The notes beneath the pieces were generated by a model that was not told where the DNA came from, did not search any database, and saw only the letters and a program-made list of their open reading frames with translations. Made by a program: the position numbers and the translations under genes. DNA of 63,861 nucleotides, filler included, from Reticulomyxa filosa (lineage: Eukaryota; Protista; Foraminifera): NCBI GenBank assembly GCA_000512085.1. It is 18 parts of 18 records of this genome, joined end to end, with 100 filler letters (N's around TTAATTAATTAA, not from the genome) between each part and the next. Parts side by side here need not be neighbours in the genome. Positions count along the whole stretch, not along the records: positions 8,253 to 10,041 come from ASPP01001705.1; 17 more parts are not named here. One strand, given 5' to 3'. Of the stretch, positions 7,831-46,531 are shown in pieces; position 1 is the first letter of the stretch, and the number at the start of each line of letters is the position of its first letter.

Positions 7831-8579
7831 AGCAGTCACTGCGACCGCACTCAAATAAATACACAAGTAAAGAATGAAACAACAAAAAAATCTTATTACA
7901 TTACTTAAATTTCTATAAATCTATTGATTACAAAGTTCCAAACGATTAAAAAAATATCCGCATTTTATTAAGTACTTAAAAAATAATAAACTCATAATAA
8001 AGTGCAAATCGATTTCTTTTGCTTATTCATAAAAAACAAATTAAAAGTAAACATACTTATCGCCTTCAATCTTTTTTAAATATGTCAAAAAACTCAATTA
8101 TATGTCAGTTTTGAGAATAGCTGAAAAAACCCCAACTTTTTTTACTTATTGCNNNNNNNNNNNNNNNNNNNNNNNNNNNNNNNNNNNNNNNNNNNNTTAA
8201 TTAATTAANNNNNNNNNNNNNNNNNNNNNNNNNNNNNNNNNNNNNNNNNNNNGATCAAGCACAGAAGTTTATTATCCAATAAAATAAAAAACCACAAAAC
8301 TAACTCAACTGGCATGTTTTACCAAACAGCAACACATGAAAAGAAAGTCTTAATTATTAACAATTTTTTTTTTTTTTAAGGTACTACCTTTTATCTTATA
8401 ACACAACCAAAAAATGAATTTTATACTGTAAGTGGAAATCTCTTTATTTTTAATTAATAATGCAAAATTGCAAAATAAATAAAAAAATATAAAAGATAAG
8501 TTTTGATTACTTGCAAATATGAGTTAAGAAAAAAGGAAACTTGAAAAAGTAAAGAGTTAAACCAAGTACATCAACGACT

Positions 8580-9720
8580 ATGTCAAACGCAAAGGAAAAC
8601 AATTTGGGTGAAGACGCCGCAATCATCACTATCACCACAACAACCTCAACGTCCACCACAATTGCCACAACCTCAGCGTCCACCGCAATTGCCATCACAA
8701 CAATTGCAACAACAACAAAGACCACATCAACAACAGCAACAACGTCCACAGCCACAACAACAAGGTATTGGGAAAAAAAACAGAATGTGATGGAGGGGTA
8801 TTAATATTATTTATGTGTGTATGTGTGTCTGTAACATATGCATGTACGTATACGTACATATGCATTCTTTTTTTTTTTTATGTATAGATTACATTTTAGA
8901 TTATGATTGCGACGTAATTATGAAAGAATTTAACGATAGCGACGTTATTATGAAAGAAATTAATAATAATAACAACGATGGCAACGACGATTGCGACTAC
9001 AGCAGTGACAATACTGACAGTGACGACAATGAAGAATTATTGGAAGAAGAAGGGAAAGAACATCGCAAATATTATTTGAAGAAAAAGAATAAGGAAATTA
9101 ATGATGATATGGGAGAAAATAGTATATTATGGTGATTCGACAGAAGCACCAGCAAAAGAACAAGCAAAAGAACAAGCAAGAGAAAGTTAAGTAAAATAAG
9201 TTTTTTTTTTAATTAAAACAAAGTGATATTGTTTGTAAATAGAACGAGAATGCACGTTGTGTTATACAAGACTGCCTCCCACATTACAAGGTATATTATA
9301 TATTGTTTGTTTATATTTTTTATTTTATTATGAATTTGTGAATGTGTGTTTATGTGTGTTTGAATATTTTTGATATATAGAGTTACCACCATATAATCTC
9401 CATCAAACGAGTGAATGGTGCTGCAACCTGGCGCAAATATTATATAATATTTTGGTGGCAATATTTTGTATGGTGCTGGCTGCAGTATTGCTCTATGTTG
9501 GATATTTGGCCATATCCGACATAGACTATTCGTGGTGGAAATGGCTCGTAGTGTCAGATGGCACATTGAACAATGGATGTGGGCTCATATTTGAAGACAT
9601 CAATCAAATATAAATACGGGTATTGCGTACGACGATTATTATTATGGAATGGTGGAATGGTTGCATATAGTGAATATTTATATTGTGGAGATTGCAAAAG
9701 AATTGCTTGCAATCATTGAC
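8580..9720 (+). pseudogene. Low-complexity (Thr-, Asp/Asn-rich) spliced-gene remnant of unknown family
   Basis: Exon-like blocks lie between GT..AG AT-rich intron-like tracts, but in-frame stops occur and no domain was recognised. Confidence 0.25.
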
Positions 9721-9734
9721 ATTTAACTCTTTAA

Positions 9735-10020
9735 GACGCTAGTGTTGCTAGGGAGATGCGATACTAGCGTCGCTATCGCACCAACTTTTGGGGGGAGTTG
9801 GTGCGATAATGGTACAACTGTTCGACCGTAGGGAGAGACGGTCGAGCATGTACCAAAATAACTGTTACATCAACAGTCGGGAGTTGATGTACAGTTATAA
9901 TGATGCCAGTATCATATGTAAAAGGCGATACTAGCATCATTGTCGCACTAACTCCCCCCAAAGTTGGTGCGATGACGACACGAGTTAGTATCGTTCAGAA
10001 ACGATACTAACTCAGTGTCG
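9735..10020. repeat. Array of seven back-to-back inverted repeats (hairpins), several with GGGAG loops
   Basis: Stems verified by eye at 9735-9771, 9774-9808, 9810-9855, 9858-9898, 9899-9941, 9942-9973 and 9976-10020, with 0-2 nt between hairpins. Confidence 0.9.
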
Positions 10021-10141
10021 GTGTGTGTTTTTGTTTGTTTGNNNNNNNNNNNNNNNNNNNNNNNNNNNNNNNNNNNNNNNNNNNNTTAATTAATTAANNN
10101 NNNNNNNNNNNNNNNNNNNNNNNNNNNNNNNNNNNNNNNNN

Positions 10142-10558
10142 GACGAACCATTCGGGCTCGGCGTACTCCTTGCTTTGCGTGATGCCGAACAGGTAGCCCA
10201 GCGCCGCTGTGACGATGAAGAACTGGTAGCCCAGCAGCACGAACCAGCCGAGCGGCTCGCCGCCGAACAGCCGGGTGCGGCAGGTCCTTTGCACGACATG
10301 AAAGGCCGTGCCGATCAGCGCGGTGCCGCCGAAGGCGAAGATGGCGGCGGACGTATGCAGCGGCCGCAGTCGGCCGAACGTCAGGTACGGGCTGTCGAAG
10401 CTGAGCTGCGGCCAGACGAGCTGGGCCGCGATGACGACCCCGACCAGGAAGGCCGCGACGCCCCAGAACATCGTCAATATGACCGCCGCGCGGATCACGT
10501 CCTCGACGTAACGCGGCGCCGGACGCTGGTCGGCTGTCAATACGGCTTGGCTCGGCAT
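10142..10558 (-). CDS. ccoN: cbb3-type cytochrome c oxidase subunit I, N-terminal part (bacterial contig, truncated)
   Basis: [45 protein letters not shown] and [13 protein letters not shown] are CcoN/FixN signature segments. High GC, with a GGAGAG RBS upstream. Confidence 0.95.
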
Positions 10559-10611
10559 GCTCTCTCCCCGAATGGTCGCGGGGACACTAGGAGGTGACGC
10601 CGGTTGCTCCC

Positions 10612-10625
10612 TTGATTTGGGTCAA
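10612..10625. promoter_or_regulatory. FNR/FixK/FnrL-type anaerobox
   Basis: TTGAT-TTGG-GTCAA against the consensus TTGAT-N4-ATCAA, about 60 bp upstream of ccoN, the classical target of these regulators. Confidence 0.85.
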
Positions 10626-10682
10626 GGCCGTTGTCCCGAGCGGCGGATCACAATGCCGCATGCAACCTGAATGTGAGGCGCC

Positions 10683-11479
10683 ATGAGCGAGACCATTGCG
10701 GTGTTTCCGACGCCCCGGCCCCTCATCCGGCGGGTCCCGGTCGATCGTCCCTGGACTTGGCTTGCCGCCGGCTGGCGCGACATAGTGGCCGCGCCCGCTG
10801 CCAGCCTCTCCTATGGCCTTGTGCCCGTCGTGGCCGGGTGGCTGGCCATCGTGCTGATGCTGCGGCTCGATCTGCCCTATCTCGTGCTGCCGCTGAGCGC
10901 CGGCTTCTTCTATGTCGGCCCTTTCATCGCGACCGGGCTGTACGAGATCAGCCGCCGCCTCGAGGCCGGTCGGCCGGTCGATGGCTGGTCCACCCTGATG
11001 GCCTGGCGGAGGATCCCGAGCAGATCGCGCTTATGGGCGTGCTTCTCCTCCTCTTCCATCTGGCCTGGATGAGATTGGCGCAGCTCCTCTTCGCCCTCTT
11101 CGAATTTCGCAGTGTGCCTTCCTGGGACCGTTTTCTCGATCTCGTCTGGACGACCTCCAAGAGTCTGCCGTTCCTCGCGCTCGGAATCGGCCTGGGAGCC
11201 TTTCTCGCAGCCATCGCCTTTGCGATCGGCGCCTTCTCCATTCCCTATCTGCTGGACCGGCGGAACTCGAACATGTTCGAGGCGATCGCGACTTCGGTGG
11301 CGGCGACCCGTCTCAATCTGCGGCCCATGCTGCTGTGGGCCGGCCTGATCGTGTTCCTGACCGGCCTCGGCATGATTGCGGGACTGCTCGGGCTGGTCGT
11401 GACGCTGCCGCTGGTCGCCCACGCGACCTGGCATGCCTATCGCGACGTCATTCATTTCGAGCCGGAACCCGCTTCCTAG
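10683..11479 (+). CDS. DUF2189-family integral membrane protein, with one frameshift near 11015
   Basis: ORF 10683-11072 (PWTWLAAGWRD...GPFIATGLYEISRRLEAG) continues in the frame of ORF 10631-11479 (PEQIALMG...AIATSVAA...PLVAHATWHAYRD). These are typical DUF2189 motifs, and one missing base restores a single gene. Confidence 0.8.
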
Positions 11480-11620
11480 CGCTGCTGCTGCGGCAGCGGC
11501 GCCTACGTAGAAATCCCTAGTTCAATTCCTCAATTGTCGGCTGGCGCCCATCTTCCTACCTAAGACAGGCAGCGTAGGACGTGCTGCGCGCGACGACGGA
11601 TCAATCCGTGGGAGAGCGAC

Positions 11621-11755
11621 ATGGCCAGGCAACCGAAAGCGATGACCTCCGAAGAGTTCGTCCATGATGTCGGCAGCTTTGCACTCTGGCTGAGCATCGC
11701 CATTCTGCTCGTTCTGGCCACGGCCACTGCTCTCGAGTCCTTCGCGACCCTCTGA
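11621..11755 (+). CDS. Small single-TM membrane protein (44 aa), bacterial
   Basis: MARQPKAMTSEEFVHDVGSFALWLSIAILLVLATATALESFATL-TGA, with a GGAGAG RBS immediately upstream and GC3-rich codons. It is below the ORF-track length cut-off. Confidence 0.6.
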   Translation: MARQPKAMTSEEFVHDVGSFALWLSIAILLVLATATALESFATL

Positions 11756-13188
11756 AGCGGGCAGACGAGGCCGCTAGAATCTCNNNNNNNNNNNNNNNNN
11801 NNNNNNNNNNNNNNNNNNNNNNNNNNNTTAATTAATTAANNNNNNNNNNNNNNNNNNNNNNNNNNNNNNNNNNNNNNNNNNNNAAAAAAAAAAAAAAAAT
11901 GATCATAGAATAACACAAAACAACAACATCACGGCCTTACTTACAAATTCTCAAAAAGTACCTGAACATTTTCACTTTAAGGTTTTTTATTTTTTTATTC
12001 TTATTTTATGAGAGGGACAAAATGGTTTTTTTGCGTGAGAGACACACTTTAAAAAATTTGCTTGTGAATTGTGCTATATTTTGAACAGACCAACAAGTTA
12101 GTAACTATGAGCGTTTATCCATGAATATTTACATATATATTTTTTTTTTTTTAAATTTCTTTTGTACAATTATTTTGCTGTTATTTTCTTACTTGTGAAT
12201 GACAAAAATAAAAGGGAAAACAGCAGAAAAAGAACACGACAAGAAGTTAATAATCTATACGTCATTGCTCCCCCCTTTTTTTTTTATTTGACAACTGTTT
12301 GTATGTTTACCCCCCCCCTTCGCCTCCATTTATCAGATGGAAACTGCTGTGGAAAGCCCAGCTTCAGTTAATTGCATTTTGAATTTTTATATCGATCACG
12401 AAAAACGTTAGACGAATTGGTGATAACAGAACCGATTTGGTGCCAATGTATTCGGTGCTGTTGATAGAATTCCTATAAAGGTTTTTTCTGCTGTGTATGT
12501 ATTAATCCCCATATATAATTTTTTTTGTTTACGTTGTATAGACAATGGAAATGCTTACTTTTCAAGCCATTCAAAGCTAACCTAAATTTTGATTTGGAAT
12601 GTTTTGATGATCCTGACGTTTCTTCAGGTTCCTCGAAAAGTCCTTTTTTTATTGAGGTTTGAGGCAAGTAAAAACCTACCACACTTTTTTATGGTATAAA
12701 TTCATTTTGTGCAACTTCATACATCTGAAGAAATGTCATTCGTCTAACGGTATATTCCTAGGTTGAGATTCTTCTTGCAAGTAACGTACATTGCACAGCT
12801 GATAAACCAAAAAAAAAGTAAATGAATTGTTTTTTTGAAAATGTCAGCTGTTCAGGTTCTTTTTTTTACACAATCATTTGACCCTAAACATGAACAAAGG
12901 CTAAAAAATGCTTGTGAACGCAAAAGGTCCAACAGTTTAAAAGCCTCTGCCGAGCGTAAATCCTTTTCCACTAAATTTTTATTGTTGATACGACATTTTN
13001 NNNNNNNNNNNNNNNNNNNNNNNNNNNNNNNNNNNNNNNNNNNTTAATTAATTAANNNNNNNNNNNNNNNNNNNNNNNNNNNNNNNNNNNNNNNNNNNNA
13101 AAAAATAATTTTTTTAAGGAAATAAATCTTTGATTTTTTTTTTCCCTTCCGCTCACGTTGTATTTGTTTTTATCGTCTTCAAATGTAG

Positions 13189-28128: not shown

Positions 28129-29070
28129 TTATATAGATTTTCTTTGTTGAAAAATGATGTCATAATCAGTAGTGTCTTGACTTTCCACACAATACCATTC
28201 ACTACATTTTTTATTTCGAATTTCTGTCCTAATATCTTGTAACATTTGCTTGAATGGATATCCACTCTTATATTTTGATGTGACAACATCTTTCATGCAT
28301 TCACTTAACAATGATAAATCAGCTACTTGATGTCCTTTTGTAGTTGACCAAATCACTAAAAATCCGTCATCATTATGACCATAGGATAATTCACTTCCTC
28401 TTTTTATAATTTCATGAGTTTTTGGAATATCTCCACCACGACAAGCATCAATAATAAAAATTTTAGGAAAATCTTTGAATGATTCCATTTCATGACAATT
28501 GAATAATGAACGTATTTTATCGATTGATATAGATTTTCCATCACTTGTTATTAACATATTTCCAGTTTCTCCATGTCCACAAATAATAGTAATTAATCCA
28601 TCATATTGACAATCATTTTCATGAAGTTGATAATTTAATTTGGCTAAAAATTTTTGAATATCTTGTTTTGTCATTTTTGGAGATGGATTACATATAATTT
28701 CATAATTTAATTCTTTTTGAAATAATTGTTTAAAATTTTTAATATCATTTTTCACATTTACAAGATTTTTCCATGTATTATTATCATTATATTCACTAAT
28801 AGCAATTATTGTTTTTATTTTTCCAAATATTAATGATTGTGAAAATGGAGTCCAAATAATTTTATATGTAGGTTCATTATTTTCAAATACTCTCATAACA
28901 TCTTCATCTGTTTCAATAATATTATTCTTCATATCAATTAATTGTAATTTTACATTTTCTTTGTTAATTTTTTGGAAATGTTTTACTTCTAAACGACTAT
29001 AACATTGACGAAGAAGTTCTTCAAAAGTTAATGTTTTCATTTTTATTAATTCTTTTTTTCCATCATCCAT
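28129..29070 (-). CDS. Caspase-like peptidase C14 domain (C-terminal part of a Kelch-caspase locus)
   Basis: Catalytic His in DGLITIICGHG and catalytic Cys in FPKIFIIDACRG. GFLVIWSTTKG corresponds to the p10 D+L..YST..G strand. Confidence 0.85.
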   Translation of the reverse strand: MDDGKKELIKMKTLTFEELLRQCYSRLEVKHFQKINKENVKLQLIDMKNNIIETDEDVMRVFENNEPTYKIIWTPFSQSLIFGKIKTIIAISEYNDNNTWKNLVNVKNDIKNFKQLFQKELNYEIICNPSPKMTKQDIQKFLAKLNYQLHENDCQYDGLITIICGHGETGNMLITSDGKSISIDKIRSLFNCHEMESFKDFPKIFIIDACRGGDIPKTHEIIKRGSELSYGHNDDGFLVIWSTTKGHQVADLSLLSECMKDVVTSKYKSGYPFKQMLQDIRTEIRNKKCSEWYCVESQDTTDYDIIFQQRKSI

Positions 29071-29499
29071 TATTATATATGCAATTAACTATTATATATT
29101 TTTATTATTATATTTTGAATTAAAAAATAAAAGGATATAGTAATATATTAACATCATCTTCATTATTGTCTTGTTTATGTTTCTTTCCTATTGATTCTTC
29201 TCTTTTCCTTATATCCTATTTCAATTTATTTAATTTTCGTTATTGTATATCTTTATTTGTTAAAGAAAAGATCAAAACATCATCAGTGAAATGATTATCC
29301 AAATAGGATTCAATTGCAGCATAAATTGTAAATATATTTTCATTATTTAACCACGTTGTAATATCATTCGTTGATAATTGTCCAAATTTTGAAATGACTT
29401 TTTCGTTTTTTTCTTTCCATAATTTTATCTATTTTTCATTTATTGTATAAATATAAATTAACTAATCTTTATTATGAAATTCAATATTTTAACTTTTAC

Positions 29500-33098: not shown

Positions 33099-34559
33099 AT
33101 GACCAACAAAAGTGGTCGTTATATGAACATATTGTTTACATTGCTTTTTTCTTTCTCTATTTGTGTCGCAGCAAAGTCACTAAATGCCTCTGCGCAACAC
33201 GTTCTTGTCATTGGTGTCGACGGGTTGGGAGGGATGTACTTGGAAAATGCAACATCCTTTTTGCCAAACTTTAATCAAGTTAGCTTTTATCCGCAAACGA
33301 AGAAGAACACATATGCACACGGGCTTGTATACGTGTTTTTGGCCCGCAAAATCGACAAAATGAATCAGAACGGCACATTTTTTTTTGTACCAAAGGAAAG
33401 ATACCCAAAAAAATTCGTACATAAACACTTACAAAAAAAAATAGTTAATATTGGAAGGGTCGTTTACCTTTCAAGCTCGCAATGTATACCCAGCAGGTGA
33501 ACATAACTTTTTTCTTCTAAACTAAAAAAGTTTTTTTTATGTACATGTCCGATGAAATTTAATTCTCTAAAAAAAAACACGTGTACGTCACGTCTAGTCT
33601 CGGCACCTAACTGGTGTGCGATAATAACGGGTTTAACTCCGCCACAAAGTGGCGTTGTGAGCAATTCGTGGGTTCCAGCAGATGACAACCCAGCCAACGC
33701 CACGGAATTGGCATTGCCACCAATCAACGGTGCAGGGCAGCTGCCACAAACAATGTGGGATGTGGCCAAACAAGCAACAGATAGTTAATAATTTTTATGA
33801 ACTAATCCACCTTTTTTTTTTTCAAAGGAGTAAATAAGTTATGCTTATGTATTAGCTGTTGTATCAAATAAAAACCTACGTATACGTTGTTTGTATATAA
33901 CTTTTTTTGCGACGGGGGGGGGGGAAAAAAAAAGGAAGAAATTGTGATTGCCGCATCAGTGAGCTGGGATTGGATTGGTTATTTGTTCTCAAATGACGTT
34001 GACTATAGTTTTCTTGGAAATGACAACGACACAGCAGTGGCCTTGACAATGTCGGATTTCATTGTTTCCTTTAAGCCAGATTTGATGTTTGTACACCTTA
34101 ATCAGGTGGATGAAGCAGGCCACAATACTTATTGGGGCTCTCCATTCTATTATCAGGCAGTCAGTAATGTAGATAACCTGATTGGTGTTTTACTTAATGC
34201 CTTAAAAGAAGCCAATATCTTTGATGAAACTCAGATTCTTATCACAGGTTTATTTTTTATTTTTTTATTTTTTTATTTTTTTAAGTTTTAAGTGGAATCT
34301 GTATGATAATGCAATGTACGTTCCCATTTTGTGGTTGTTGTCGGAAATAGCTGATCATGGAGGATGGGGAAACACCCATGGCCAATTTAATGAATGTAAT
34401 ATGTACATTCCCGTCATTTTTAGTGGCCCAGGCATTATCAAAAATAATTCGTTGACAAACTACGTTGAAAATGTTGATTTGGCTCCAACTGTTTTGAATT
34501 CTCTTGGGATCAAGTTGGAACCGAAAGGGTTTGAATTCCGGGTTTTTAAAAACCCGGAA
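33099..34559 (+). CDS. Secreted alkaline-phosphatase-superfamily (nucleotide pyrophosphatase/phosphodiesterase-like) enzyme, multi-exon
   Basis: Signal peptide, HVLVIGVDGLG, VSAPNWCAIITG (nucleophile Ser), FVHLNQVDEAGH, ITADHGG, THG and VDLAPTV. Confidence 0.85.
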
Positions 34560-41113: not shown

Positions 41114-44100
41114 TCAAAAAGTACCATTGCATCGTTCAACAACTGACTTCTGCAATAAAGTCAAGCCTTTTGCATCTTTCCAGATGCTACCTTTCAATGA
41201 CAAAAAACCCTGAGTACCAAACCGCCAAATGCATTTCCACAAGGAAATTTGTTTATCTTGTGAACCTGATCCACGTTGATTGTCATGTGCAGAAGGATAA
41301 ACCACATTTAAATTGCTTGGAGTATCATATAAATCGGTAATACAAACAGGAGATTGTTTCCACAATCGAATAGTATTGTCGATTGAACCTGAAATGATTC
41401 TTGAGCCGTCACGTGAAAATTCAACAGAAGTAATAGAGTGTGAGTGTCCTTCAAGAGATTGAAGTTGTTCACCGGACGATACGTTCCACAATCGAAAATC
41501 ATCATTTGAACTAGACACAATTTTTGAACCATCAGGTGAAAATTGAACGCAAGTAACCTGTGATAAATGACCTTCTAGAGATTGAAGTCGTTTACCAGAA
41601 GATACGTCCCACAACCAAATATTTTTACCCGAACAAGATGCAATTTTGGAGCCATCAGGTGAAAATTGAACAGAACTAATATAAGATAAATGGCCGTTCA
41701 GAGAATATAGTTGTTCACCAGAAGATACGTTCCACAATCGAATTTCACCATCTGAACCAGATGCAATTTTTAAACTGTCAGGTGAAAATTGAATACAAGT
41801 AACCTGAGATAAATGGCCGTTCAGAGATTGAAATTGTTTACCAGAAGATACATCCCACAATCGAATAACATTTTCTGAACAAGATACAATTCTAGAACCG
41901 TCAGGTGAAAATTCAATACAACTAATATAAGAGAGGTCTCTTTCTAAAGAATAAATATTTTTGCCAGATGATAAATCCCAAATTTGAATTATGTTATCTC
42001 TTGAAATAGACACGACTTTAGAACCATCAGGTGATAATTTAAAAAGTTCATATTGTTCTTCGAAACATTGAAGTTGTTTACCAGAAGATACATCCCACAA
42101 CCGAATGGTGCGATCAAATGAACTGGACACAATTTTGGAAGTATCAGGTAAAAATTTAACAGAAGTAACTCGTTTTAAATGTCCTTCCAGAGATTGAAGT
42201 TGTTTCCCGGACAACGCATCCCACAATCGAATAATGTTGTCATATGAGCCTGATACAATTTTCGAACCGTCAGGTGAAAATTGAACAGAGCTAACACTAT
42301 TCATATGTCCTTCCAAAAATTGGGATTGACTACCAGAAAATGCATCCCACAGTCCAATAGTTGTATCCTTCGATCCTGACACAATTCTTGAGCCATCAGG
42401 TGAAAAGCTGACAGAAAAGATATCAAATAGATGTCCTTCAAAAGATTGGATCAGTTTGCCCGATGATACATCCCACAAGCGAATGGTTTTATCCCAGGAA
42501 CAAGATACAATTTTGGAAGAATCTGGAGAGAATTCAACAGAAGTAACACTTGACAAATGTCCTTCAAAACATCGAAGTTGTTTACCAGATAATGCATCCC
42601 ACAATCGAACAGTACAATCATATGAACCTGACACAATCTTCAAACCGTCAGGTGAATACTGAACAGAAGTCACACCAGCCAAATTGCCTTTTAGAGATTG
42701 AATTTGTTTGCCAGAAGATAGGTCCCAGAATTGAATATGATTCTCTGAATTGGATACAATTTTGGAATCATCAGGTGAAAATTTAACACAAGTCACACCG
42801 GATAAATTTTCTAAACATTGGAGTTGTTTTCTAGATGATACATCCCATAATCGAATAGTATTGTCAATTGAACATGACACAATTTTTGAACCATCAGAAG
42901 AAAAGTGAACCGAACTAATATAATCTGAATGACCTTCCAGAGACAGAATTTGTTTAGCAGATGATACATCCCATAATCGAATGGTTTTGTCACCTGAACC
43001 TGAAACAATTTTTAAACCATCACGTGAAAATGCAACAGAGCTAACACAGTTTGAATGTCCTTCAAGACATTGAATTTGTTCACCTGATAATGTATCCCAC
43101 AATCGAACGGTATTATCATCCGAGCCAGACACAATTTTTGTACCATCAGGTGAAAATTGAACAGAGTTAATAGCATCTAAATGTCCTTTAATATAACCAT
43201 ATTCACCAAAGTTGACATGATTTACTGTTGCGTTTGTGAAATTGGCGTAGTTGAGGAATGCATGAAAAAATTTGACATGATCTAAATTAGCTTCATTGAA
43301 ACTGGTTCTCTCAAGGAAGGCATAATCTAAAATGGCATGTGGTATATTTACTTTATTCCAATTTTGATTGTTCAGACTAACTCTTGCAACATTAAGTATG
43401 GTAACAGCATTAGCTGCTGCAATAGACACAATTGGATTATTTTTGGATGATTCAATGATTCGGAATAATCGTGATTTCAAATTTGCATAAATTGGATTTG
43501 TGTCACAAACTCTATCTGCAATAAATTGAATAATTCCAAATTGTTCATTTAATAATTTACAATTGATAAGAAGATGTTGAACATTTGTTTGAAATTGTTG
43601 TTGAAATTGTTGATTATCAATATCGACAAGATGGTTAACATTAGGTTTCCATGAAATAATATCAAAGATAATTTTTTGAGCAGAATAATATTCTTGACAA
43701 GATTTATGTAAGAATTGATATTTGTTATCACCAACTCTTCTTAATACATATCTAGCAATACTATCACCATTGAAATATTTTTCCCAAATATCTTGTGTTT
43801 TTGTAATTGAAATATCAGCTAACTCATCTGTTGTATTTGTCTCTATTTTTTCATCCATAAAATAATTTTTTTTACTTTCATCATTATCATCATTTTTTAT
43901 AATTGGATCTAATTTATTTAATATTATCTCATGGTCGTTTATATACTGAAAATCTTGTTCAATTGCAACTTGATTTCCTTGAATAAACATATCAAATCCT
44001 AAATCAAGACAATACTGTTTTAATTTGTATTTAATTTTATGGATATTCATGTTTATTCGTAATTCGGATAATTTAGATAATATGTTTTGCGTATGAATAT

Positions 44101-46531
44101 CAATCCATTGATCATTAAATACTTGATAAACTTGTGCTTTAGAAATTTTTGTTCCAGTACCATATTGTTTAACTAATAAAGGTAAAATAGTTAAAATAAG
44201 TTGAAGAAGAAAAGGTTCTTCGATCATTTTTAATAAATTAGGATAATTATTTAAAGTTTCTTGATATTGTTTTAATGTCCAATAATTATTATTTTTTATT
44301 TGAATGTTTGCAAATTTTTCAATATAATTGCGCATTTGTTGTTTTGTAAATGGCCATAAATGTATCATTGAAGTTATAACATTATGTTGTTTTTTATTTA
44401 TACCAATTAAACTTGTATTAACATCTTCATCACTTAAAGCATTACTTCTACAAGTAACAATAATTTTAGCATTCCATTGATTTAAATTAAAACGATCATA
44501 AAAATATTGTTCATATTCATTAATACTTTTACGATAAAAATCATATATTTCATCAAATCCATCCATAATAAAAATAAAAGATATTTGTTCACGAATATTA
44601 TTAATAATCTCTTTATTAATATTTTTATTTTGTAATGCTTGTAAAATAATATCTTTATCATTATTTTTATTGTAAATATTTGGAAATGATATATAAATTG
44701 GAATCGGCTGCTTTGAATTAGATTTATAATTATTCCATAATGTTTCTTCTAAATAACGACAGAAAATACTTTTTCCAGATCCTGATTTTCCTTGAATAAT
44801 CATTATTTTTTATTGTTGTTCTACTTTCTTTTCTTCTTCTTTTTCCTTTTTTTCTTCTAAAAATTCAATTACATGTTGATAACAATCAAAAGTTTCATTT
44901 TTTTCATTGTGTTCACTTTCTATATATGCATAACGATTTGCTTGCAGCGGTATATATGTTTCAAGCGCTTGTGATATAGTAATATCTTCTTCTATTTCTT
45001 GCTTTCTTGATTCTTGCAATAATAATGCAAAATCAGCACAATTTGCAGGATTATTGTCACCAATAATATATTGTTTATAATATTCATATAATATAACATA
45101 AATAGCTTTATCTTTTTCTTTTTCTGGAATAAATGTACATAATTGTTCATAAATAAATTGTGATAGTTTTAATATTATATCATTTTGTATTTCAAAATTT
45201 GTTTTTTTTAATAATTGTGATGGTTTTAATATTATAATATCTAAATGTGGCTTATATCGTTCAGATATTTTTTTAATTATTTTATCATTAACCCATTCAC
45301 ATACAATATCATTAATTTTTGTTAGTGTTTCTTCTGTTGCATGTTTTAACTTTTCTTCTTCTTTTGTATTAATATATTTCCATGATCTAATATATCCATA
45401 AAGTATATGACTTAATTTTGGATTTTCCATTTCTGTATAACCTTCTAATAATGTATATTTTTTTAATGTTGCTTGCATTTCTATATATATATCATATTTT
45501 GGCACATATAATTTAATATTATGTGTTCTATGATGTGTTGTTGATTGTTTATCGAAAAAATTTTTATCTTCGGACACAATTAAATTAAATTTTCCCGCTT
45601 TCTTCATTACTTCTACTGCGGTTTGTAATTTTGTAGGATTATCACATAAAATAGTAAATCTTCCAACATCAAATACTCTATTAAAATCACCTTTATAATC
45701 ATATTTAATTTTTTCTAATAATCTTTCTTTATCTTTTACTTTTGGTTTTACAATCGTAATACCATATTTTTGTAATTCTGTTATCAAACTTATTATTTCA
45801 ATACTTTTCATTGCATTTTCACTTCTTGTTATTAAATCCTCTATGCTTTCTGCATGTTGTTTAATTCTATTTGCTTTTAATTCATATATTAGGCTTGATT
45901 TAATTGGATAAACGGCTTGATAGTTATAGTTATTTTTATATGATATACCATCATTAGTAGAAATAGAATGCTCTGCATTAAAAAACATTACTTTCATTAT
46001 TGATGCAACTGTTAAGTTTAGACAATCAGGGCATGTAAATGACGTTTTTTCTGGATCAAGCGTCATATCTTTAAATCCTTCATTTACCCAAACAAATAAT
46101 TTTGCATTTGCTACTAGACAATTTTCATTTGTGCAATAACCTTGTAAATTAATTCCTGATTTAATATCTCCAACTTCTGGTTTTTCATCTTCTTTTTTTA
46201 ATTGTTCAGATTTTTGCTCTATTTCGTTTGCTTGAATTCTTTGATTATCATTTTCCTATTTTTGTTTTTTAATAGTAATATATATGTATATATATTCTTT
46301 ATAAAGACACACATTCTGATCCATCGATGTTGAAACCATTGTTTCAATCACAGCTAATACATTTCCATCGCTTTCTTCTAGCCTTTTTTTCAATTCTTCT
46401 TCTTCATTGGCATCATCAAATAATCTTTTTAACACCTTCATTTCCTTTGAATAATTTTTTATTTTACGTTCGTGCTGCATACTCCCTAAGAGTTTAACAG
46501 ATTTCTTATCCTTGTGTACGAAATCGTTCAT
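41114..46531 (-). CDS. NLR-like STAND protein: helical (UBA-like) N-terminus, Cys4 Zn module, RelA/SpoT-like nucleotidyltransferase, NACHT, pentapeptide repeats, 15 WD40; one in-frame TAA at 44810-44812
   Basis: Exon 1 is 46531-46313, followed by a GT-AG intron and then one frame from 46255 to 41114. Motifs: GINLQGYCTNENC...CPDC, KVKDKERLLEK...DVGRFTI...IEMQAT, Walker A GKSGSGKS, Walker B FIFIMDGFDE, IIVTCR, YQFLHKSCQEYY, AAANAVTIL plus pentapeptide repeats, and 15 WD40 repeats. Confidence 0.85.
41355..43190 (-). repeat. Tandem array of 15 highly similar WD40 units (about 123-126 bp each)
   Basis: The consensus GH...V.SV.FSPDGSKIVSGS.D.TIRLWD.SSGKQLQSLE is repeated 15 times, and similarity is visible at the DNA level. 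Confidence 0.9.

What the first reader, a model, noticed from the sequence alone, without database searches (positions are those of the whole stretch)
9735..10020. Seven contiguous hairpins with GGGAG loops: candidate structured ncRNA or mobile-element terminus
Seen in sequence: H1 GACGCTAGTGTTGC-TAGGGAGAT-GCGATACTAGCGTC; H2 TATCGCACCAACT-TTTGGGGGG-AGTTGGTGCGATA; H3 GGTACA..TGTTCGACCGT-AGGGAGAG-ACGGTCGAGCATGTACC; H4 ATAACTGT.TACATCAAC-AGTCGGGA-GTTGATGTACAGTTAT; H5 AATGATGCCAGTATC-13 nt-GATACTAGCATCATT; H6 GTCGCACTAACT-CCCCCCAA-AGTTGGTGCGAT; H7 CGACACGAGTTAGTATCGTT-CAGA-AACGATACTAACTCAGTGTCG. Almost every base of 286 nt lies in a hairpin. Most imperfections are G-T pairs on the plus strand (H1, H3, H6) or small bulges, which suggests folding as a plus-strand single-stranded nucleic acid. 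Four consecutive hairpins with different stems present GGGAG at or beside the loop. Established knowledge: looped GGAG/GGA motifs are bound by CCHC zinc knuckles (Lin28, retroviral nucleocapsid on psi) and by CsrA/RsmA in sponge RNAs. Inference: this could be a multivalent protein-binding RNA, a packaging or replication signal of a retro/ssDNA element, or a family of mobile palindromes. No feature in the window explains it.
Basis: partly seen in the sequence, partly recalled or inferred. Interest (0 to 1): 0.78.

Follow-up and report, generated by a model that had tools for sequence, protein, structure and literature searches.

The report
Foraminiferan seven-hairpin mosaic repeat
Behind a broken gene of a foraminiferan (a single-celled eukaryote) lies a 286-letter stretch made almost wholly of seven related fold-back hairpins; it is likely selfish DNA that grew by copying itself, and no second copy could be reached to show whether it moves or has a function.

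Summary
The array is real. Seven hairpins fill 277 of 286 nt at 9735-10020, and folding z is about -18 on both strands. The hairpins are not independent. H1, H5 and H7 share one stem core, with changes on both arms. H6 is an inverted copy of H2, so its loop reads CCCCCC, and H2 and H6 can pair into a long helix around H3-H5. H3 and H4 link to the others only weakly. GGGAG is wholly in a loop only in H1 and H3, and the plus-strand wobble bias (5 of 6) is not significant alone. The contig is foraminiferan nuclear DNA: a frameshifted paralogue of a Reticulomyxa filosa gene matches up to 47 nt before H1. The bacterial contig next door is unlinked. Best reading: a compound palindromic repeat that likely grew by tandem and inverted copying plus template switching, like the hairpin elements of organelle genomes but nuclear. 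There is no target-site duplication of 3 nt or more. Copy number, covariation across loci and expression could not be tested, because no genome or run was available. A functional RNA is not excluded.

The parts
9735..10020 (.). Compound hairpin array: H1,[H2(H3,H4,H5)H6],H7 in the best fold; A-B-(A?)-(B?)-A-B'-A by descent; 47% GC
9735..9771 (.). H1, type A hairpin, 14-bp stem with 2 G-T pairs on +, loop TAGGGAGAT
9774..9808 (.). H2, type B hairpin, perfect 13-bp stem, G-run loop
9811..9854 (.). H3, 17-bp stem with a 2-nt bulge; shares the 8-mer TAGGGAGA with H1 (the only 2 copies in 62 kb of host DNA) and two 6-7-mers with H4; type A membership weak (p 0.04-0.05)
9858..9898 (.). H4, 16-bp stem with a 1-nt bulge; shares GGGAGTTG with H2; type B membership suggestive (p 0.011-0.024 on loop plus 3' arm, 0.053 on the whole hairpin)
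9899..9941 (.). H5, type A hairpin, 15-bp stem, one mismatch that is G-T on the minus strand, 13-nt loop
9942..9973 (.). H6, type B hairpin with the loop inverted relative to H2; 2 G-T pairs on +
9976..10020 (.). H7, type A hairpin, 20-bp stem with a 4-nt insertion on both arms relative to H1/H5, 4-nt loop
9763..9985 (.). Internal inverted repeat: arms 9763-9794/9954-9985 (32 nt, 84%) and 9787-9811/9938-9962 (25 nt, 92%); direct repeat 9758-9786/9925-9953 (29 nt, 83%)
9381..9687 (+). Exon of a broken host gene, paralogue of Reticulomyxa filosa hypothetical protein RFI_02283 (P0123); frameshift near 9598-9601; one predicted membrane helix (by eye)
9243..9380 (+). Inferred exon 9243-9290 and GT-AG intron 9291-9380 of the same gene; both ends phase 1, frame kept
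   Evidence: sequence read directly; inference, no RNA data
10021..10041 (+). G/T-only tail to the contig end; starts with GT and resembles host intron sequence (9336-9362); inferred splice donor
   Evidence: inference

Best explanation
The array is a mosaic of related palindromes in foraminiferan nuclear DNA that is likely selfish, non-coding repeat DNA, likely built by repeated copying of a hairpin unit of about 40 nt. Shown: two hairpin types (A = H1/H5/H7, B = H2/H6), one B copy with an inverted loop, differences between copies that fall on both arms of a stem, shared words linking all seven, and a position at the 3' end of a frameshifted host gene. Inferred mechanism: during replication the single strand folds, and polymerase template switching copies one arm onto the other (keeping stems nearly perfect without selection) and can flip a loop. 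Slippage or repeated insertion of units next to each other lengthens the array. Inferred further: the units, or the whole block, arrived as a non-autonomous insertion without target-site duplication, moved by an unknown enzyme acting on hairpins. The GGGAG loops would then be inherited from the founder unit and could be the enzyme's recognition site, but need not bind any host protein.
For: Paralogy: 3' arms H1-H5 p 0.0002, H1-H7 0.006, H5-H7 0.007, H2-H6 0.0002 against shuffles (21 pairs tested, so only the two at 0.0002 survive strict correction alone); H7 against H1+H5 p 0.0014 and H2 against the A group p 0.004. Among H1, H5, H7: three substitutions and one 4-nt indel lie on both arms (read). 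H6 shares ACTAACTC with its neighbour H7, which suggests local copying as the source of one of its 'wobbles'. Template switching is reported to perfect stems, give compensatory changes and invert loops (PMC8794818, passages; PMC8604942, abstract start). Related hairpin types in tandem multi-hairpin arrays are known as selfish DNA in organelles (PMC2800124; PMC2670323; PMC4478555; passages). Folding signal starts abruptly at the array: z -4 to -8 inside, mostly above -3 elsewhere on the contig. The flanks read AAG on the left (its G is also H1's first base) and GT on the right, like the two inferred AAG|GT donors of this contig; chance about 0.001-0.002 per boundary choice, noticed after the fact.
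Against: No second copy found: window BLAST, viral contigs 0 in 6 pattern scans, prokaryote genomes 0 in 2, plasmids and phages none, metagenomes 1 hit that is a lone bacterial terminator-like hairpin. None of these collections is a eukaryote genome set, so mobility is untested. All 6 stem mismatches are transitions and 5 are wobble pairs on the plus strand, p about 0.01-0.04 under an assumed transition share of 0.5-0.67, which hints at selection on a plus-strand fold. H1 and H3 keep an identical 8-nt loop while their stems have diverged, the reverse of sponge hairpin elements, whose loops vary. Membership of H3 and H4 in the two types is weak. The paralogue's DNA could not be fetched, so no empty site was seen.
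Confidence: 0.5

Rival explanations
1. A functional structured RNA on the plus strand (3' UTR element of the upstream gene family, a stand-alone ncRNA, or a source of small RNAs from the H2:H6 helix) that shows GGGAG loops to an RNA-binding protein.
For: Plus strand folds 16-17 kcal/mol better. 5 of 6 mismatches are plus-strand wobbles. GGGAG is 4 times on +, against about 0.4 expected from the array's own base make-up (hand estimate; motif chosen after the fact). The array lies in the sense direction of the upstream gene, 8 nt after an in-frame stop at 9724-9726. Both-arm changes between paralogous stems.
Against: z is equal on both strands. The motif is fully looped in 2 of 7 hairpins, buried in H2 in the equilibrium fold, and reversed in H6. 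No Rfam family reaches its threshold: 2 matches at E 0.058 and 3.1, far below gathering scores. No tRNA. The host gene is frameshifted. Long, nearly perfect stems with both-arm changes also arise by template switching.
Confidence: 0.2
2. One terminus or origin of a longer single-stranded-DNA replicon or HUH-type transposon that is integrated here and cut off by the contig end; the nested cloverleaf and the flipped loop would serve hairpin-primed or rolling replication.
For: The best fold is a long helix enclosing three hairpins, also with DNA parameters (-105.8 and -100.2 kcal/mol). Hairpin ends are general in Rep transposons, and a Rep related to red-algal plasmids is reported from R. filosa (10.1101/2022.12.15.520654, passages). 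No target-site duplication.
Against: No Rep, transposase or capsid on the contig; the upstream DNA is a host gene. The 21 nt after H7 look like host intron sequence, so the element seems to end at H7. The flanks are A and G, not the AT or TT Helitron site given. No viral contig match.
Confidence: 0.15
3. A piece of mitochondrial (or other organelle or symbiont) DNA rich in hairpin elements that was captured by the nucleus.
For: Such arrays are best known from organelles, and inert nuclear copies exist in Volvox. No mitochondrial genes were found in the R. filosa contigs (PMC10127745), so its mtDNA is unknown from these sources.
Against: Three foraminiferal mitogenomes are 21-24% GC with 1-4% repeats (PMC13421374), and neither mitogenome paper holds the words 'palindrom' or 'hairpin'. 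The array is 47% GC with no organelle gene beside it.
Confidence: 0.07
4. A library or assembly artefact (fold-back or adaptor chimera) at a contig end.
For: The array ends 21 nt from the contig end. Another contig ends in 25 nt of the 454 paired-end linker (34514-34538), so remnants exist in this assembly. A bacterial contig is mixed in.
Against: Fold-backs copy neighbouring DNA exactly (established knowledge). Here the arms are 12-20 nt, the copies have diverged (83% over 29 nt), they carry both-arm changes, and they match nothing in the flanks. No similarity to the linker stretch (local score 10 or less). Host-like sequence lies on both sides.
Confidence: 0.06

Closest known systems
Repetitive hairpin-forming elements and double-hairpin elements of sponge and fungal mitochondria (PMC2800124, passages; Allomyces elements as cited there)
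   Same: Short hairpin units of related types that differ by complementary substitutions and stand in tandem as double or multiple hairpins; no coding; Allomyces elements lack flanking duplications.
   Different: Here the DNA is nuclear; only one locus is known; one pair of hairpins keeps its loop while the stems diverge; an inverted copy gives a nested cloverleaf.
Short palindromic repeats of Volvox carteri and GC clusters of yeast mtDNA (PMC2670323, PMC4478555, passages)
   Same: Unit size 30-50 nt, richer in GC than the host, units merged, shuffled or inserted into one another, both orientations.
   Different: Yeast GC clusters have AG or ACT target duplications; Volvox loops are 3-5 nt and A/T-rich; both proliferate in organelles.
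BIME mosaics of bacterial REPs (PMC2817692, passages)
   Same: Two palindrome types alternate in a modular array, with changes that preserve pairing.
   Different: Eukaryotic host; no GTAG head before the stems; spacers of 0-3 nt instead of inter-REP segments; no RAYT gene on the contig.
MITEs and foldback elements (general features recalled; PMC5172404 seen as search listing only)
   Same: Small, non-coding, with an inverted repeat pair that can fold the element back on itself, sitting in a gene region.
   Different: The inverted repeat is internal and the true ends match at only 5-7 of 15 nt; no target-site duplication of 3 nt or more.
CsrB/RsmZ-type sponge RNAs; Lin28 and nucleocapsid GGAG sites (recalled)
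   Same: Repeated GGA/GGAG in or beside hairpin loops (GGA unpaired in H1, H3, H4).
   Different: Stems of 12-20 bp, motif missing or reversed in 3 of 7, eukaryotic host, no Rfam match.

Membership tests
Organellar repetitive hairpin elements (RHE/DHE/GC clusters) | Short hairpin units of related types in tandem multi-hairpin arrays | tested here: met
   compare
Organellar repetitive hairpin elements (RHE/DHE/GC clusters) | Many dispersed copies in the genome | not testable with these tools
   no genome held; none in the 64-kb window
Organellar repetitive hairpin elements (RHE/DHE/GC clusters) | Located in organelle DNA | tested here: not met
   flank is an intron-containing paralogue of a nuclear R. 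filosa gene
Organellar repetitive hairpin elements (RHE/DHE/GC clusters) | Stems conserved, loops variable | tested here: inconclusive
   true for H1/H5/H7; opposite for H1/H3
MITE | Terminal inverted repeats at the element's ends | tested here: inconclusive
   ends match 5-7 of 15 nt; internal inverted repeat of 25-32 nt arms
MITE | Target-site duplication | tested here: not met
   none of 3-8 nt for boundaries within about 6 nt of the ends; 2-nt TA absent by reading
MITE | High copy number of uniform length | not testable with these tools
REP/BIME | GTAG-like head 5' of each palindrome | tested here: not met
   read: the only GTAG lies at the H3 stem-loop junction; heads as listed
REP/BIME | Bacterial host with a cognate RAYT | tested here: not met
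   eukaryotic contig; 0 hits in prokaryote genomes
Helitron or other Rep transposon end | Insertion between AT or TT; 3' hairpin followed by CTRR (recalled) | tested here: not met
   flanks are A (9734) and G (10021); no CTRR after H7
Helitron or other Rep transposon end | Linked or cognate HUH transposase | not testable with these tools
   none seen on the 1.8-kb contig; genome not held
CsrB/RsmZ sponge RNA | Match to the family model; bacterial host | tested here: not met
   Rfam scan; host eukaryotic
CsrB/RsmZ sponge RNA | GGA shown in most loops | tested here: inconclusive
   GGA unpaired in 3 of 7 hairpins
Functional structured ncRNA | Covariation across independent homologues, and expression | not testable with these tools
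   no homologous locus; no run listed

The most novel reading that the evidence does not exclude
A so far undescribed family of nuclear, non-autonomous multi-hairpin mobile elements in Foraminifera. It would move as a folded single strand without target-site duplication, be recognised through GGGAG loops, keep its stems perfect by template switching, and insert at exon-intron junctions, helping to turn host genes into pseudogenes.
Probability: 0.12. Interest if true: 0.75.

Novelty: new variant of a known kind. Interest (0 to 1): 0.36.

Why it matters
Selfish hairpin arrays are mostly described from organelles and bacteria. A nuclear family in Foraminifera, whose repeats are barely catalogued, would add a kind of mobile DNA and a possible cause of gene breakage in these genomes. 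The locus is also a clear caution for RNA discovery: a z of -18, both-arm changes and a repeated loop motif can all come from duplication and template switching with no RNA function. If it is a single local accident, it matters little.

Tried and rejected
Own genome: not held, so no copy count. Sequencing runs: none was listed, no RNA holder listed; no evidence either way. Rfam: 2 weak matches, rejected. ARAGORN: 0 genes. Plasmid and phage blastn: no match. Pattern scans: viral 0 in 6, prokaryote genomes 0 in 2, metagenomes 1 in 1. That hit (L001:1075-1122) is a lone hairpin with A and T runs at its ends between bacterial-looking genes, most likely a two-way terminator matching by chance; no neighbouring hairpins. 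Earlier findings of the scan: 7 look-ups, none bears. Link to the ccoN contig at 10142-11783: rejected, it is a separate 65% GC contig behind a spacer. A Cys/His-rich reading of 9381-9716 in another frame (P0001): no homologue, and the true frames were shown by P0123. P0002: nothing in the word-based search or Atlas; found by full HMMER search, 2 hits, of which P0124 is a spurious repeat protein. P0123 in viral contigs: none; Atlas rows uninformative. The 8-mer in the H1/H3 loops recalls the start of T7 transcripts (recalled, untested), but the upstream bases differ between the two copies; rejected. No covariance model was built, because paralogues inside one locus are not independent evidence. 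Literature: searches showed no description of this element in their listings; four of five array motifs have no full-text hit or only one in an unrelated paper (two motifs 1 hit each, three motifs 0). The R. filosa genome paper is not held, so it and its supplements may describe such repeats.

Full report
Context. The window is 18 short contigs joined by N spacers. The finding lies at the right end of contig 8253-10041 (34% GC), 21 nt before its end. The host is an AT-rich, intron-rich eukaryote. The only hit with a species name among the 120 listed for its divergent alpha-tubulin tail is Reticulomyxa filosa (81% identity), and the gene next to the array has an R. filosa paralogue. I therefore call the host a foraminiferan, R. 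filosa or a close relative (inference). The next contig, 10142-11783, is 65% GC, encodes a cytochrome c oxidase subunit I and is unlinked bacterial DNA.

Observation. The seven hairpins are there and cover 277 of 286 nt. Folding is far beyond chance on both strands: z -18.4 and -18.9, 0 of 200 shuffles each. Nothing similar exists elsewhere in the window; a stem scan found 5 other isolated hairpins, and windows of like GC content fold to about -55 against -154 kcal/mol. In 100-nt windows along the contig, z is -4 to -8 over the array and mostly above -3 elsewhere, apart from one hairpin at 9492-9525.

Anatomy. The hairpins descend from each other. H1, H5 and H7 share CGATACTA in the 3' arm (p 0.0002-0.007 pairwise, 21 pairs tested; H7 against the other two p 0.0014). 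Between them, three substitutions and a 4-nt indel fall on both arms. H6 read on the minus strand is H2 with its G-run loop (14- and 13-nt exact matches; alignment). For that reason the best fold pairs H2 with H6 and encloses H3-H5; it is 22 kcal/mol more stable than seven separate hairpins, although local hairpins could form first during transcription (inference). H3 shares its 8-nt loop with H1 (p 0.04) and short words with H4 (p 0.07, 0.012-0.028). H4 shares GGGAGTTG with H2 (p 0.011). Types A and B share TGCGATA (p 0.004), and H6 shares ACTAACTC with H7. An alternating A-B order is thus suggested, firm for five hairpins and weak for H3 and H4. Flanking homology does not tell whether H6 is an inverted duplicate or a direct duplicate with a flipped loop: both alignments score alike (D2, D5, I1, I2).

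The GGGAG motif. It occurs 4 times on plus and once on minus, out of 26 in 62 kb. It is wholly unpaired in H1 and H3, 4 of 5 nt in H4 and paired in H2. Since the hairpins are paralogues, these are not independent occurrences. The one point that favours selection on the loop is H1/H3: same loop, diverged stems.

Strand. Five of six stem mismatches are G-T on plus; H5's is G-T on minus. The strand bias alone has p 0.22. All six being transitions with five on one strand has p about 0.01-0.04 under an assumed transition share. One H6 wobble may have been copied from H7. This is a hint, not a result.

Flanks. Upstream, tblastn with P0123 (RFI_02283) gives 9344-9598 at 43% and 9601-9687 at 79% in two frames (E 1.5e-22), so this copy is frameshifted; a sequencing error cannot be excluded. 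An inferred GT-AG intron at 9291-9380 keeps the frame. The matched part ends 47 nt before H1 and its frame stops at 9724-9726. No direct repeat of 3-8 nt flanks the array, and its ends match at only 5-7 of 15 nt. The left flank ends in AAG and the right flank starts with GT and a G/T tract, like the inferred donors at 8765 and 9291. That fits an insertion at an exon-intron junction, at a chance of about 0.001-0.002 per boundary choice, but it was noticed after the fact and no empty site could be read.

Other copies. None was found: viral contigs 0 in 6 scans, prokaryote genomes 0 in 2, plasmids and phages none, metagenomes 1 chance-like terminator. These collections are not eukaryote genome sets and the host genome is not held, so the central question of copy number stays open.

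Mechanism. Template switching during replication is reported to create perfect stems, make multi-base compensatory changes and invert loops (PMC8794818, passages; PMC8604942, start of abstract). With tandem or inverted copying of units it accounts for every structural feature seen here without RNA function. Arrays of this build are known as selfish DNA in sponge, fungal and algal organelles (PMC2800124, PMC4478555, PMC2670323, PMC7218506; passages) and as BIMEs in bacteria (PMC2817692, passages). I give this reading 0.5. Functional RNA gets 0.2, the end of a Rep-type element 0.15 (a Rep from R. filosa is named in a figure legend of 10.1101/2022.12.15.520654; PMC6668415 does not name it in its main text), organelle capture 0.07 (PMC10127745 and PMC13421374, passages) and artefact 0.06 (a linker remnant exists elsewhere in the window, PMC2688268 passage, but does not resemble the array).

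Comparison and novelty. It is built like the organellar hairpin elements but fails their location test, and it fails the tests for MITE (no target duplication), REP/BIME (no head, eukaryote), Helitron end and bacterial sponge RNA. I found no description of such an array in Foraminifera in searches. PMC13746701 (passages) gives 30.5% repeats for R. filosa and does not hold the words 'palindrom' or 'hairpin'. The genome paper itself was not held, and no supplements were read, so an earlier description cannot be excluded. Verdict: a real and unusual feature, best filed as a new variant of selfish palindromic repeats, with mobility and function untested; interest 0.36.

Noticed in passing
window 34514-34538: The contig ends in the first 25 nt of the 454 paired-end linker as printed in PMC2688268, followed by a short palindrome; a library remnant that extends a sulfatase-like reading frame artificially.
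   Followed up: yes
window 10142-11783: A 65% GC bacterial contig (cytochrome c oxidase subunit I start, plus a membrane gene with an apparent frameshift near 11020) inside a eukaryote assembly: contaminant or symbiont.
   Followed up: partly
window 8580-9726: Intron-containing, frameshifted paralogue of R. filosa RFI_02283, a membrane protein with no Pfam family; the database paralogue also looks mis-modelled (intron read-through, early end).
   Followed up: partly
window 9492-9525 and 9690-9714: Two further hairpins (14 bp with one plus-strand G-T pair; 8 bp perfect) inside the broken exon upstream of the array, unrelated in sequence to it; 9381-9734 folds at z -2.5 (+) and -1.9 (-).
   Followed up: partly
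window 9751, 9790-9795, 9831, 9879: Four G runs of 3 or more lie in or at the loops of four consecutive hairpins; a loop-to-loop G-quadruplex is conceivable but untested and speculative.
   Followed up: no
window 41114-46255 and 28129-29088: A long NACHT-like NTPase plus WD40 gene and a caspase-like open frame, by eye, typical of expanded families in this host.
   Followed up: no
L001 1075-1122: A two-way terminator-like hairpin between convergent bacterial-looking genes whose stem matches H2/H6 by what is likely chance.
   Followed up: yes
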